Shown here: positions 25,130 through 28,653 of the stretch, one piece after another
How positions within the stretch are numbered: the first letter of the stretch is position 1
How the letters are laid out: each line of letters begins with the position of its first letter
NCBI RefSeq assembly: GCF_054482525.1
Contig: NZ_CM137006.1
Strand: one strand, 5' to 3'
DNA: 64,000 nt
Position numbers and translations under genes: made by a program
Notes under the pieces: generated by a model
The model's input: only the letters and a program-made list of their open reading frames with translations
Told to the model about the DNA's origin: nothing
The model's database searches: none

Positions 25130-27913
25130 ATGATCCAGATTGATCTTCCCACGCTGGTAAAACGGCTTAACCTGTTCTCCCGCCAGGCGCTGGAGATGGC
25201 CGCCTCTGAATGTATGAGCCAGCAGGCAGCGGAAATTACCGTCAGCCATGTGCTTATTCAGATGCTCGCCATGCCACGCAGCGACCTGCGGGTTATTACC
25301 CGCCAGGGCGATATTGGCATGGAAGAGTTGCGCCAGGCGCTGACGGTGGAGAACTACACAACTGCCCGTTCTGCGGACAGCTACCCGGCATTTTCCCCGA
25401 TGCTGGTTGAGTGGCTGAAAGAGGGCTGGCTGCTGGCGTCGGCTGAGATGCAGCACAGCGAATTGCGTGGCGGCGTGTTGCTGCTGGCCCTGCTGCATTC
25501 GCCGCTGCGTTATATACCGCCTGCTGCCGCCCGGTTGTTGACCGGCATTAACCGTGACCGTCTGCAACAGGACTTTGTACAGTGGACACAGGAGTCGGCG
25601 GAATCAGTCGTGCCGGATGCAGACGGTAAAGTCGCAGGCACACTGACGGACGCTGCTGACACCCTGCTTGCCCGCTACGCCAAAAACATGACCGCAGACG
25701 CCCGTAACGGCAGGCTTGACCCGGTACTGTGCCGCGACCACGAAATCGACCTGATGATCGACATTCTCTGCCGCCGCCGCAAGAACAACCCGGTGGTGGT
25801 GGGCGAAGCAGGCGTGGGTAAAAGTGCCTTAATCGAAGGGCTGGCGCTGCGCATCGTGGCAGGCCAGGTGCCGGACAAACTGAAAAACACCGATATCATG
25901 ACCCTTGACCTGGGCGCATTGCAGGCCGGGGCGTCGGTGAAGGGCGAATTCGAAAAACGCTTCAAGGGGCTGATGGCGGAGGTCATTTCCTCTCCGGTGC
26001 CGGTCATTCTGTTTATTGACGAAGCACATACCCTGATTGGCGCGGGCAACCAGCAGGGCGGGCTGGATATCTCCAACCTGCTCAAACCGGCGCTGGCGCG
26101 CGGCGAACTGAAAACCATCGCCGCCACCACCTGGAGCGAATACAAAAAATACTTCGAGAAAGATGCCGCCCTGTCGCGCCGCTTCCAGCTGGTGAAGGTC
26201 AGCGAACCCAACGCCGCCGAAGCCACCATTATTCTGCGTGGTCTGTCGGCGGTCTATGAACAGTCTCACGGCGTGCTGATTGATGATGACGCCTTGCAGG
26301 CCGCAGCAACGCTGAGCGAACGTTATCTCTCCGGGCGTCAGTTGCCGGACAAAGCCATTGATGTGCTGGATACCGCCTGCGCCCGCGTCGCCATTAACCT
26401 TTCCTCGCCGCCGAAGCAAATCTCGGCGCTGACCACTCTGAGCCACCAGCAGGAGGCGGAAATTCGCCAGCTTGAGCGCGAGCTTCGCATCGGGCTGCGT
26501 ACCAACACCTCACGGATGACCGAGGTGCTGGTGCAGTACGATGAAACGCTGACGGCGCTGGATGAACTGGAAGCGGCCTGGCATCAGCAGCAGGCGCTGG
26601 TCCGGGAGATTATCGCGCTGCGCCAGCAGTTGCTGGGCGTGGCAGAAGACGATGCGGCGTCGTTGCCGGACGCAGATGCCGCGGAGGATACGCCGCCAGA
26701 GTCAGAGTCAGAGTCAGAGTCAGAGTCAGAACAGGATAATACCGGTGCCGTACCGGCTGATGAGGCCGACAGAGAACAGCCGGAAGAGACCGCTGAAACA
26801 GTTTCCCCGGTACAGCGGCTGGCCCAGCTCACTGCCGAACTGGACGCCCTGCATAACGACCGGTTGCTGGTCTCCCCGCACGTCGATAAAAAACAGATTG
26901 CGGCGGTGATTGCCGAATGGACCGGCGTGCCGCTCAACCGCCTGTCGCAGAATGAAATGTCGGTCATCACCGACCTGCCGAAATGGCTGGGCGACACCAT
27001 CAAAGGCCAAGACCTGGCGATTGCCAGCCTGCATAAGCATCTACTGACCGCACGCGCCGACCTGCGTCGTCCGGGACGCCCGCTCGGTGCGTTCCTGCTG
27101 GCTGGCCCCAGCGGTGTGGGTAAAACCGAAACCGTCCTGCAACTGGCAGAGCTGCTCTACGGCGGTCGCCAGTACCTGACCACCATCAATATGTCCGAGT
27201 TCCAGGAGAAACACACCGTCTCGCGGCTGATTGGCTCCCCTCCGGGCTATGTCGGCTATGGCGAAGGCGGCGTACTGACCGAAGCGATCCGCCAGAAACC
27301 CTACTCGGTGGTGCTGCTCGATGAAGTGGAAAAAGCGCACCCGGATGTCCTCAACCTGTTCTACCAGGCGTTCGACAAGGGCGAGATGGCAGACGGCGAA
27401 GGCCGCCTGATTGACTGTAAAAACATCGTTTTCTTCCTCACCTCCAACCTTGGTTATCAGGTGATTGTCGAACACGCCGATGACCCGGAAACCATGCAGG
27501 AAGCCCTCTATCCGGTGCTGGCGGACTTCTTTAAACCTGCCTTGCTGGCGCGCATGGAAGTGGTGCCTTACATGCCGCTGTCGAAAGAGACGCTCGCTAC
27601 CATTATTGCCGGGAAACTGGCCCGCCTGGATAACGTGCTGCGCAGCCGCTTTGGCGCGGACGTGATTATTGAGCCGGAAGTGACGGACGAAATCATGAGC
27701 CGTGTCACCCGCGCTGAAAACGGCGCAAGGATGCTCGAATCGGTCATCGATGGCGACATGCTACCGCCGCTCTCGCTGCTGCTGTTGCAGAAAATGGCGG
27801 CTAACACGGCGATTGCCCGGATTCGGTTGTCGGCGGTGGACGACGCATTTACGGCAGACGTGGAAGATGCTCAGAACGACGAGTCCGTCACAAAGGATGA
27901 AACGGTTTTATGA
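25130..27913 (+). CDS. clpV: T6SS AAA+ ATPase ClpV (TssH), 927 aa
   Basis: Two AAA+ modules with Walker A motifs (GEAGVGKS, GPSGVGKT). Start taken as ATG 25130 (MIQIDLPTLVKRLN). The track ORF start at 25016 is an upstream in-frame extension overlapping tssL. Confidence 0.9.
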   Translation: MIQIDLPTLVKRLNLFSRQALEMAASECMSQQAAEITVSHVLIQMLAMPRSDLRVITRQGDIGMEELRQALTVENYTTARSADSYPAFSPMLVEWLKEGWLLASAEMQHSELRGGVLLLALLHSPLRYIPPAAARLLTGINRDRLQQDFVQWTQESAESVVPDADGKVAGTLTDAADTLLARYAKNMTADARNGRLDPVLCRDHEIDLMIDILCRRRKNNPVVVGEAGVGKSALIEGLALRIVAGQVPDKLKNTDIMTLDLGALQAGASVKGEFEKRFKGLMAEVISSPVPVILFIDEAHTLIGAGNQQGGLDISNLLKPALARGELKTIAATTWSEYKKYFEKDAALSRRFQLVKVSEPNAAEATIILRGLSAVYEQSHGVLIDDDALQAAATLSERYLSGRQLPDKAIDVLDTACARVAINLSSPPKQISALTTLSHQQEAEIRQLERELRIGLRTNTSRMTEVLVQYDETLTALDELEAAWHQQQALVREIIALRQQLLGVAEDDAASLPDADAAEDTPPESESESESESEQDNTGAVPADEADREQPEETAETVSPVQRLAQLTAELDALHNDRLLVSPHVDKKQIAAVIAEWTGVPLNRLSQNEMSVITDLPKWLGDTIKGQDLAIASLHKHLLTARADLRRPGRPLGAFLLAGPSGVGKTETVLQLAELLYGGRQYLTTINMSEFQEKHTVSRLIGSPPGYVGYGEGGVLTEAIRQKPYSVVLLDEVEKAHPDVLNLFYQAFDKGEMADGEGRLIDCKNIVFFLTSNLGYQVIVEHADDPETMQEALYPVLADFFKPALLARMEVVPYMPLSKETLATIIAGKLARLDNVLRSRFGADVIIEPEVTDEIMSRVTRAENGARMLESVIDGDMLPPLSLLLLQKMAANTAIARIRLSAVDDAFTADVEDAQNDESVTKDETVL
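26698..26730. repeat. In-frame hexanucleotide tandem repeat (AGAGTC) x5.5 inside clpV, coding (Glu-Ser)5
   Basis: Plus strand 26698..26730 agagtcagagtcagagtcagagtcagagtcaga, encoding ...PESESESESESEQDN... in an acidic linker between the two ATPase modules. Confidence 0.8.
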
Positions 27914-28653
27914 GCAGGTTGCGCGTTTTCCGGCAGACAGGATGGTTTATCGCGGGCCTGATGACGGGCTTACCCGCCACTGCCGCGCCCGCAGAAACAT
28001 CGTCAATGGCCGGTGTGGCGGTCGCCGTCGCCACCACGACCCCGCCGGATGCGACAGCCACGTTACAGGCCATGCAGTCCTGTCGGCGGGAGTCCGCGGC
28101 GCTGGAGCGGCTTGACTGCTATGACCGCCTGCTGGCACCGCTGTCCCCGTCAGGGTTTGACGGGGCGCTGGTCAAAGCCGGTTTTGTGGGCGAGGCCTGG
28201 ACCCGCGCCACAGAGCAGGAAAAACGCCGCGAGGGCAACACCACAGAACTGCTGGTGACGCAGGTGCCGGGGGAGCGCCCGACGGTGGTGATAACCACCC
28301 CGGCTATCGGCCATGTTCCGCCGCGCCCGGTGCTGATGTTCAGTTGCGTGGACAATATCACCCGGATGCAGGTGGCGCTGATGCCCCCTCTGGATGTCCA
28401 TGATATCGCCGTCACTCTGAATGCCGACAGCCGGGCATTGCGTAGCCACTGGTTTGTGCGCGAGAACGGCACCCTGCTGGAGTCCAGCCGGGGGCTGTCC
28501 GGGATTGATGAAATTAAGCAACTGTTCGGCGCAAAAACGCTGACAGTGGATACCGGCGCAGATAACGCCGCAGGAAAGCTGACCTTTAACATTGACGGGC
28601 TGGCAAGGGCGATTGCCCCCCTGCGCGATGCCTGCCACTGGGCGGGAGAATAA
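27910..28653 (+). CDS. T6SS-associated secreted/periplasmic protein, VasI-like, 247 aa
   Basis: Start overlaps the clpV stop (ATGA). N-terminal signal-like segment. Occupies the position VasI holds between clpV and tssA in V. cholerae-type clusters. Family assignment by position only. Confidence 0.45.
   Translation: MSRLRVFRQTGWFIAGLMTGLPATAAPAETSSMAGVAVAVATTTPPDATATLQAMQSCRRESAALERLDCYDRLLAPLSPSGFDGALVKAGFVGEAWTRATEQEKRREGNTTELLVTQVPGERPTVVITTPAIGHVPPRPVLMFSCVDNITRMQVALMPPLDVHDIAVTLNADSRALRSHWFVRENGTLLESSRGLSGIDEIKQLFGAKTLTVDTGADNAAGKLTFNIDGLARAIAPLRDACHWAGE

What the first reader, a model, noticed from the sequence alone, without database searches (positions are those of the whole stretch)
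25130..28653. No vasH-like sigma-54 activator between clpV and the vasI-like gene
In the V. cholerae arrangement a sigma-54 enhancer-binding protein sits between clpV and vasI. Here the vasI-like ORF overlaps the clpV stop (ATGA), leaving no room for it. No PpkA/PppA kinase-phosphatase pair accompanies the FHA gene either. Regulation of this cluster must therefore differ from the V. cholerae and threonine-phosphorylation paradigms.
Basis: partly seen in the sequence, partly recalled or inferred. Interest (0 to 1): 0.35.

Follow-up and report, generated by a model that had tools for sequence, protein, structure and literature searches.

The report
E. coli T6SS-2 island lacks vasH
The missing sigma-54 activator between clpV and vasI is real, but it is the normal, conserved layout of the well-known E. 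coli T6SS-2 island, so the finding is ordinary; the one surprise is that the island's FHA gene is split by an insertion sequence in this strain.

Summary
clpV/tssH (25130-27913) and vasI (27910-28653) overlap by ATGA. No sigma-54 activator, Hanks kinase or PP2C phosphatase is encoded in the window. No island intergenic region holds a credible -24/-12 core.

It is not unusual. The window is the aspV-linked E. coli T6SS-2 island, 99.7-100% identical to strain PCN033. The same uninterrupted junction is in 2733 of 5426 complete E. coli genomes.

Among 80 VasI-anchored loci, 46 have nothing between clpV and vasI. Another 32 (Yersinia, Serratia, Photorhabdus, Proteus, Morganella) carry a 260-269 aa GAF + HTH_8 protein, homologous to the VasH N-terminal domain but without the AAA+ module. 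Two carry a full activator, as do six of eight more distant loci. On a ClpV tree the E. coli clade nests inside the short-gene group (98/100), which suggests stepwise loss.

V. cholerae also lacks PpkA/PppA, and there VasH/RpoN control hcp operons rather than the main cluster. The orthologous EHEC island is already known to be repressed by H-NS, and the hcp-tssB promoter region here is 33% GC.

Verdict: already known, low interest.

The parts
25130..27913 (+). clpV/tssH, the type VI secretion ATPase (927 aa)
   Evidence: NCBIfam TIGR03345 equivalog, 1122 bits against a cut-off of 885. Pfam AAA_2, AAA_lid_9 and ClpB_D2-small. Start ATG 25130 with an AAGGA ribosome-binding site.
27910..27913 (+). 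ATGA overlap: vasI start codon and clpV stop codon (translational coupling, no intergenic space)
   Evidence: Read directly from the sequence. The same -4 overlap occurs in most Enterobacteriaceae loci.
27910..28653 (+). vasI (also called tagO or evfG), a T6SS-associated protein with a signal-peptide-like N-terminus
   Evidence: Pfam PF11319, E 1e-52. NCBIfam TIGR03360, 256 bits against 124.
28658..30073 (+). tssA (vasJ)
   Evidence: Pfam T6SS_VasJ and ImpA_N. Start taken from the PCN033 annotation.
24360..25121 (+). tssL (DotU)
   Evidence: Pfam DotU, E 7e-58.
19850..20211 (+). tagH 5' fragment carrying the FHA domain
   Evidence: Pfam FHA. NCBIfam TIGR03354 positions 1-106 of 420. 100% identical to PCN033 tagH up to position 20211.
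20212..21548 (-). IS421 (IS4 family) inserted in tagH, 1337 bp, with a 12-bp target duplication (20200-20211 = 21549-21560)
   Evidence: DDE_Tnp_1 transposase at 20382-21500 on the minus strand. Annotated as IS421 in matching genomes. Borders defined by comparison with intact PCN033 tagH.
21549..22500 (+). tagH 3' fragment (T6SS_FHA_C domain)
   Evidence: Pfam PF20232, E 1e-41. NCBIfam TIGR03354 positions 108-420.
13545..14240 (.). Divergent hcp<->tssB control region, 696 bp, 33% GC; the likely sigma-70 promoter and H-NS target
   Evidence: GC 0.332 against 0.552 for the island core. No GG-N9-TGC core on either strand. Weak sigma-70-like hexamer pairs. About 97% identical in O157:H7, where the island is H-NS repressed (PMC5363993).
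14241..35485 (+). Main T6SS-2 operon: tssB, tssC, tssE, tssF, tssG, tagH::IS421, tssJ, tssK, tssL, clpV, vasI, tssA, tssM, vasL, hcp. Genes are tightly packed or overlapping.
   Evidence: Pfam assignments. ORF coordinates. PCN033 annotation.
10708..13544 (-). Divergent hcp (13026-13544) and vgrG (10708-12816)
   Evidence: Pfam Phage_GPD and Gp5 domains for vgrG. Hcp from the PCN033 annotation.
38185..38261 (-). tRNA-Asp (aspV), the island's insertion site
   Evidence: ARAGORN. PCN033 annotation. T6SS-2 is reported next to tRNA-Asp (bioRxiv 10.1101/2024.03.05.583533).

Best explanation
This is the ordinary E. coli T6SS-2 island (aspV-linked, with V. cholerae-like gene order). Its lineage has lost vasH completely, so clpV and vasI are fused into one translationally coupled unit.

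Shown here:
- No activator, kinase or phosphatase is encoded in the window.
- No sigma-54 promoter core is present in the island's intergenic regions.
- The junction is conserved in half of all complete E. coli genomes.
- Related clusters carry either a full VasH or a GAF + HTH_8 remnant that lacks the AAA+ module, and the E. coli clade nests inside the remnant-bearing group.

Inferred: the 21-kb tssB-to-hcp gene set is transcribed as one long operon by a sigma-70-type promoter in the 696-bp AT-rich hcp<->tssB region. That region is silenced by H-NS, as reported for the about 97%-identical EHEC region, and is relieved by global regulators rather than by a dedicated activator. TagH would act without a cognate kinase, as in V. 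cholerae.

In this particular strain IS421 splits tagH. This most likely inactivates TagH and is polar on tssJ through hcp, so the apparatus is probably impaired.
For: The junction and the gene identities are confirmed. The six-frame motif scan is negative, with a positive control. Domain scans of the island ORFs are negative. The annotation of the whole PCN033 island shows no regulator.

Matches to the -24/-12 consensus number 44 against 42 expected by chance, and none lies in the control region. No island intergenic region has a GG-N9-TGC core in a usable position; the single match lies on the strand opposite tssC. The control region has one poor GG-N10-GC match, 5 of 11 positions.

The junction is uninterrupted in 2733 of 5426 genomes. 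The 80 loci split into 46 with nothing, 32 with the short gene and 2 with a full activator. Six of eight distant VasI loci carry Sigma54_activat between ClpV and VasI.

The short protein has HTH_8 only. hhalign against the VasH N-terminal domain gives probability 99.4%, E 2.4e-21. The predicted fold is GAF, with activator GAF domains 4g3v and 4g3k among the top hits. On the ClpV tree the E. coli clade is monophyletic in 100/100 bootstraps, groups with part of the short-gene class in 98/100, and the short-gene class is never monophyletic.

The control region is 33% GC. H-NS represses the EHEC island (PMC5363993). TagH is needed in V. cholerae without PpkA/PppA (PMC10482370). The IS421 borders are mapped.
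Against: - No transcription start site or H-NS binding was measured for this sequence. The sigma-70 hexamer matches are no more frequent than chance (5 against 3.2).
- The negative promoter scan has limited proven power. The -24/-12 consensus scan run on the Flag-2 region and on two vasH-containing loci gave no usable positive control.
- The tree uses one protein (ClpV) with neighbour joining, and deep nodes are unresolved (38-45/100).
- The locus sample is capped at 80 and biased by the two peptide patterns used. Vibrio and Aeromonas themselves were not retrieved.
- Polarity of the IS421 insertion is inferred, not shown.
- PCN033, which carries its own IS200C in tssG in RefSeq, is reported to have an active T6SS (PMC4882540). 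IS insertions therefore need not abolish function, or assemblies may differ from the stocks used.
Confidence: 0.8

Rival explanations
1. A sigma-54 activator encoded elsewhere in the genome drives the T6SS-2 island in trans. Candidates are the LafK-like activator of the neighbouring Flag-2 cluster or one of the housekeeping E. coli activators.
For: PCN033 has a 328-aa activator with GAFTGA and Walker A about 14 kb beyond the island's yafV border. Deleting evfG/vasI in PCN033 is reported to lower flagellar gene expression, which hints at T6SS-flagella cross-talk (PMC12292395).
Against: No usable GG/TGC -24/-12 core lies in any island intergenic region. Consensus matches over the window are at chance level. 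The activator lies inside a flagellar operon and is separated from the island by seven core genes.
Confidence: 0.05
2. The absence of vasH is a strain-specific deletion or an assembly artefact at the clpV-vasI junction.
For: The window's island does carry other strain-specific lesions: IS421 in tagH and broken rhs genes.
Against: The identical junction is present in one piece in 2733 complete E. coli genomes. The -4 overlap is shared with Citrobacter, Buttiauxella, Lelliottia, Trabulsiella and others. tblastn with 33 VasH or short-VasH proteins finds no remnant in the window (best E 0.035).
Confidence: 0.01
3. Post-translational control of TagH persists through a non-canonical kinase encoded outside the island. 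The FHA protein would still be a phospho-threonine reader, as in the PpkA/PppA pathway.
For: The FHA domain is conserved in intact tagH alleles such as that of PCN033. In Agrobacterium and V. alginolyticus the FHA protein reads phosphorylated TssL rather than being the substrate itself (PMC10482370).
Against: No Hanks kinase or PP2C is encoded in the window. In V. cholerae, with the same architecture, no TagH phosphorylation was observed (PMC10482370). In this strain tagH is split.
Confidence: 0.1

Closest known systems
E. coli T6SS-2 island at aspV (EHEC EDL933 Z0244-Z0272; NMEC RS218, EAEC 042, porcine ExPEC PCN033)
   Same: Same insertion site, gene content and gene order. The island is 99.7-100% identical to PCN033. 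The promoter region is about 97% identical to O157:H7. The clpV-vasI junction is the same.
   Different: Only the mobile-element load differs. This window has IS421 in tagH, whereas PCN033 has IS200C in tssG and ISVsa5 after hcp. The 28-bp tssM insertion described for EHEC is absent.
V. cholerae VAS cluster (VCA0107-VCA0123), with vasH (VCA0117) between vasG/clpV and vasI
   Same: The gene order is the same from tssB to vasL. VasI, VasJ and VasL accessory genes are present. An FHA protein is present without PpkA/PppA.
   Different: There is no vasH and no sigma-54 promoter core near hcp. hcp and vgrG are linked to the cluster here rather than lying in auxiliary operons.
Short 'Fis family regulator' at the vasH position in Yersinia, Serratia, Photorhabdus, Proteus and Morganella T6SS clusters (e.g. 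L045:7133-7927)
   Same: These clusters belong to the same cluster family, and the E. coli clade nests among them on the ClpV tree.
   Different: They retain a 260-269 aa GAF + HTH_8 derivative of VasH. E. coli retains nothing.
H-NS-silenced T6SS islands (Salmonella SPI-6, EHEC T6SS-2)
   Same: A horizontally acquired island with an AT-rich control region, 33% against 55% GC.
   Different: H-NS binding was not tested for this sequence. SPI-6 belongs to a different T6SS subtype (my own knowledge).

Membership tests
E. coli T6SS-2 / V. cholerae-like (VasI-containing) T6SS cluster | Core genes tssA-M plus clpV, in the order tssB-C-E-F-G-tagH-J-K-L-clpV-vasI-tssA-tssM-vasL | tested here: met
   Pfam assignments for every gene. 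tagH is split by IS421.
E. coli T6SS-2 / V. cholerae-like (VasI-containing) T6SS cluster | VasI accessory protein (TIGR03360 / PF11319) | tested here: met
   256 bits against a cut-off of 124; Pfam E 1e-52.
E. coli T6SS-2 / V. cholerae-like (VasI-containing) T6SS cluster | Insertion next to tRNA-Asp (aspV) in the yaf region | tested here: met
   tRNA-Asp at 38185-38261, flanked by dnaQ, rnhA and others. Literature support.
VasH / sigma-54-dependent T6SS regulation | Cluster-encoded enhancer-binding protein (PF00158 with GAFTGA and Walker A) | tested here: not met
   No motif in any of six frames (positive control). No PF00158 in the island ORFs. No tblastn hit.
VasH / sigma-54-dependent T6SS regulation | GG(-24)/TGC(-12) promoter upstream of hcp, vgrG or tssB | tested here: not met
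   No GG-N9-TGC core in a usable position in any island intergenic region. Consensus hits are at chance level.
VasH / sigma-54-dependent T6SS regulation | Expression depends on rpoN | not testable with these tools
   Needs an rpoN mutant with transcript measurements.
Threonine phosphorylation pathway (PpkA/PppA/Fha) | FHA-domain protein in the cluster | tested here: inconclusive
   tagH is present but split at TIGR03354 position ~107 by IS421. It is intact in PCN033.
Threonine phosphorylation pathway (PpkA/PppA/Fha) | Hanks-type Ser/Thr kinase PpkA | tested here: not met
   No HRDxKxxN motif in six frames. No Pkinase domain.
Threonine phosphorylation pathway (PpkA/PppA/Fha) | PP2C phosphatase PppA | tested here: not met
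   No PP2C domain in the island ORFs. None annotated in the PCN033 island.
H-NS-silenced horizontally acquired island | AT-rich control region relative to the island and the core genome | tested here: met
   33% GC against 55% for the island and 48% for the flanking core genes.
H-NS-silenced horizontally acquired island | H-NS occupancy and derepression in an hns mutant | not testable with these tools
   Reported for the orthologous EHEC island (PMC5363993). Not measured for this strain.

The most novel reading that the evidence does not exclude
The empty clpV-vasI junction in E. coli is the end point of a stepwise dismantling of a dedicated sigma-54 activator. The ancestral state would be a full VasH (GAF-AAA+-HTH), still seen in Halomonas, an Osedax symbiont and distant marine relatives. 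An intermediate that lost only the AAA+ motor survives as a conserved, translationally coupled GAF + HTH_8 protein in Yersinia, Serratia, Photorhabdus, Proteus and Morganella. It is presumably a sigma-54-independent DNA-binding regulator. The Enterobacteriaceae clade that includes E. coli then deleted it cleanly. My paper searches found no description of the short form, and NCBIfam has no model for it.
Probability: 0.5. Interest if true: 0.35.

Novelty: already known. Interest (0 to 1): 0.12.

Why it matters
For this window it matters little. Any annotated E. coli T6SS-2 island shows clpV followed directly by vasI, and H-NS repression of that island is published.

Two points have modest value.
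- The comparative series (full VasH, then GAF + HTH_8 remnant, then nothing) gives a concrete evolutionary account of how a secretion-system cluster lost its dedicated sigma-54 control and fell under global silencing. It also flags an uncharacterised regulator family in Yersinia, Proteus and Photorhabdus T6SS clusters that could be tested.
- The IS421 insertion in tagH adds one more case of T6SS-2 degeneration in E. coli lineages, a trend recently described for O157:H7 (PMC12981562).

Tried and rejected
- A 48-sequence VasI alignment was too diverse for the genome scan, so a 13-sequence alignment was used instead. Its two peptide patterns did not retrieve Vibrio or Aeromonas.
- Searching with the Halomonas VasH N-terminal domain returned only five fragments. 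VasH sequences were instead collected from contigs encoding distant VasI relatives.
- Positive controls for the -24/-12 scan were uninformative: the Flag-2 region and two vasH-containing loci.
- Bernard et al. 2011, on sigma-54 and T6SS clusters, is not in the held library.
- The sigma-70 and terminator scan of the control region was no better than chance.
- I looked for a vasH remnant in the window and found none.
- I looked for the EHEC-type 28-bp tandem insertion in tssM and it is absent.
- The single perfect TGGCAC match, at 13056-13071 on the minus strand, was rejected as a vgrG promoter. It lies inside hcp, upstream of a strong terminator-like hairpin (12986-13017), and has a poor -12 half.
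Full report
**What the window is.** The ORF map and Pfam scans show a complete type VI secretion cluster on the plus strand:

| Gene | Coordinates |
|---|---|
| tssB | 14241-14741 |
| tssC | 15051-16526 |
| tssE | 16533-16946 |
| tssF | 16950-18800 |
| tssG | 18758-19846 |
| FHA gene (tagH) | 19850-22500, interrupted |
| tssJ | 22497-23021 |
| tssK | 23024-24355 |
| tssL | 24360-25121 |
| clpV/tssH | 25130-27913 |
| vasI | 27910-28653 |
| tssA/vasJ | 28658-30073 |
| tssM | to 33616 |
| vasL | to 34979 |
| hcp | 35003-35485 |

A second hcp, vgrG and rhs genes run divergently on the minus strand. tRNA-Asp lies at 38185-38261 and an rRNA operon lies further right. Megablast places the region in E. 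coli. The island is 99.7-100% identical to porcine ExPEC strain PCN033. It occupies the aspV site between yafV and dnaQ. The literature calls this island E. coli T6SS-2, the same island as EHEC Z0244-Z0272.

**Checking the observation.** The clpV start is ATG 25130, eight bases after the tssL stop and preceded by AAGGA. ATGA at 27910-27913 holds the vasI start and the clpV stop. Both genes pass curated equivalog cut-offs: TssH 1122 against 885 bits, VasI 256 against 124. There is no room for a gene between them.
- A six-frame scan of all 64 kb found no GAFTGA-like motif, no activator-type Walker A and no Hanks kinase motif. The only hits were a Walker-B-like string inside clpV and a chance string in the rRNA region.
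- The same patterns detect the real activator of the PCN033 Flag-2 cluster, so the scan has power.
- Pfam and NCBIfam scans of the main island ORFs show no Sigma54_activat, Pkinase or PP2C domain.
- tblastn with 33 VasH-type proteins finds no remnant (best E 0.035).

**Sigma-54 promoters.** TGGCAC-N5-TTGCW with up to two mismatches gives 44 matches against 42 expected, and none lies in the 696-bp hcp<->tssB region. The near-invariant core GG-N9-TGC, which is the V. cholerae ChIP motif, is absent from that region on both strands. It is also absent upstream of vgrG, upstream of the second hcp and in the tssA-tssM gap. Its only intergenic match lies between tssB and tssC on the opposite strand. 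The looser GG-N10-GC gives one poor match in the control region, 5 of 11 positions. My attempts at a positive control in vasH-bearing loci were uninformative, so this negative result is good but not absolute.

**How unusual is it?** It is not unusual. A 601-bp probe across the junction matches in one piece in 2733 of 5426 complete E. coli genomes.

I used VasI as an anchor and retrieved 80 loci from one-genome-per-species contigs. I then classified them by what lies between clpV and vasI:

| Class | Loci | What lies between clpV and vasI | Where found |
|---|---|---|---|
| Nothing | 46 | Usually the same -4 overlap | E. coli relatives, Citrobacter, Buttiauxella, Lelliottia, Trabulsiella, Rahnella, Pasteurellaceae, Gilliamella, Budvicia and others |
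| Short gene | 32 | A 260-269 aa ORF, coupled on both sides | Yersinia including Y. pestis, Serratia, Photorhabdus, Xenorhabdus, Proteus, Providencia, Morganella, and a second Trabulsiella cluster |
| Full activator | 2 | A 522-545 aa sigma-54 activator | Halomonas, an Osedax symbiont |

Eight more distant VasI representatives (28-39% identity) were traced to their contigs. Six carry Sigma54_activat between ClpV and VasI. One contig was too short to tell. One lacks both clpV and the activator.

**The short gene.**
- Pfam sees only a C-terminal HTH_8 and NCBIfam has no model. Sources name it 'Fis family transcriptional regulator', and no E. coli member turned up.
- A profile of 22 short proteins aligns to the N-terminal domain of a profile of eight VasH proteins with probability 99.4% and E 2.4e-21.
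- An AlphaFold model (pLDDT 81) has an N-terminal alpha/beta domain, a 50-residue helix and a C-terminal helix-turn-helix.
- Foldseek identifies the N-terminal domain as a GAF fold. The GAF domains of the Aquifex activators Nlh1 and Nlh2 are among the best hits.

The short protein is therefore VasH without its AAA+ sigma-54-interaction module.

**Direction of change.** I built a neighbour-joining ClpV tree rooted on the full-activator loci.
- The E. coli-containing 'nothing' clade is monophyletic in 100/100 bootstraps.
- It groups with a subset of the short-gene loci (Edaphovirga, Enterobacillus, Entomohabitans, Trabulsiella-b) in 98/100.
- The short-gene class is never monophyletic (0/100).

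The simplest reading is full vasH, then the AAA+-less form, then deletion in the E. coli lineage. A second 'nothing' group (Pasteurellaceae, Gilliamella, Budvicia and others) has an unresolved position (38-45/100). The caveats are one protein, a distance method and a capped, pattern-biased sample.

- V. cholerae itself has TagH but no PpkA/PppA (PMC10482370). The missing kinase pair is a shared feature, not a difference.
- In V. cholerae V52, VasH and RpoN control the hcp operons and vgrG3 but not vipA/vipB (PMC3439928). The main cluster is not sigma-54-driven even in the model organism.
- The orthologous EHEC island is poorly expressed in vitro and strongly derepressed in an hns mutant (PMC5363993). 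The review lists H-NS, Fur and Rcs among the regulators of enterobacterial T6SSs.
- The control region here is 33% GC against 55% for the island. It is about 97% identical in O157:H7.

**Most likely mechanism.** I infer one long operon from a sigma-70-type promoter in 13545-14240, silenced by H-NS. The tight gene spacing and overlaps from tssB to hcp fit a single transcription unit with translational coupling. The clpV-vasI ATGA is one instance of that coupling.

The FHA gene is broken. IS421 (1337 bp, 20212-21548, transposase on the minus strand) sits between codons for TIGR03354 positions 106 and 108, with a 12-bp target duplication. Only 7 of 5426 genomes share this junction. TagH is required for Hcp secretion in V. 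cholerae, and the insertion lies upstream of tssJ through hcp. The apparatus in this strain is therefore probably impaired, and the regulation question is partly moot here. Both rhs genes are also fragmented.

In PCN033 a 328-aa sigma-54 activator with GAFTGA lies about 14 kb beyond the yafV border. It is embedded in the Flag-2 lateral flagellar cluster; I identify it as LafK-like from my own knowledge. Seven core genes separate it from the island. With no sigma-54 promoter core in the island, I see no link.

**Verdict.** The only part that may be new is the comparative series, with its AAA+-less VasH family outside E. coli.

Noticed in passing
window 19850-22500: tagH (the FHA gene) is split by IS421 at 20212-21548, with a 12-bp target duplication. 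The exact junction occurs in only 7 of 5426 complete E. coli genomes. A few more genomes match 22 bases into the element, which suggests other IS events at the same site.
   Followed up: yes
window 1907-10641 (minus strand): Both rhs genes are fragmented: 1907-3616, 3668-4387 and 4281-5855; and 6394-6882 plus 7096-10641. PCN033 has an intact 1420-aa copy of the second one.
   Followed up: partly
L045:7133-7927 (Y. pestis) and 31 other loci: A conserved 260-269 aa GAF + long helix + HTH_8 protein occupies the vasH position between clpV and vasI. It is homologous to the VasH N-terminal domain but lacks the AAA+ module. It has no NCBIfam model and is annotated only as 'Fis family regulator'.
   Followed up: yes
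L003:16452-17438 (PCN033, beyond the window's left end): A 328-aa sigma-54 activator (GAFTGA, GETGAGK) lies inside the Flag-2 flagellar cluster, about 14 kb from the T6SS island border.
   Followed up: partly
L001 (PCN033) compared with window 18758-19846 and 35514-36443: PCN033 carries IS200C in tssG and ISVsa5 in the gene after hcp. The window has neither but is otherwise 99.7-100% identical. Close relatives have therefore accumulated different IS hits in the same island.
   Followed up: partly
L089:5074-6726: In a metagenomic VasI-type cluster, tssL is followed directly by vasI, with neither clpV nor vasH between them.
   Followed up: no
L072-L074 (Gilliamella) 7923-10022; L037 7980-10034: The vasI reading frame runs on for about 2.1 kb, which suggests a vasI-vasJ fusion.
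   Followed up: no
L004, L006: Contigs labelled as Bacillota and Collinsella MAGs carry clpV-vasI 94-98% identical to E. coli. They are probably mis-binned Enterobacteriaceae contigs.
   Followed up: no
window 14776-14982: A 68-aa ORF lies between tssB and tssC. It is annotated as hypothetical in PCN033 and has no family match.
   Followed up: partly
window 35514-37854: Four ORFs lie between the last hcp and aspV. They have no NCBIfam match, and the three scanned against Pfam have no Pfam match either. The region is 36% GC. They may be effector/immunity cargo.
   Followed up: partly
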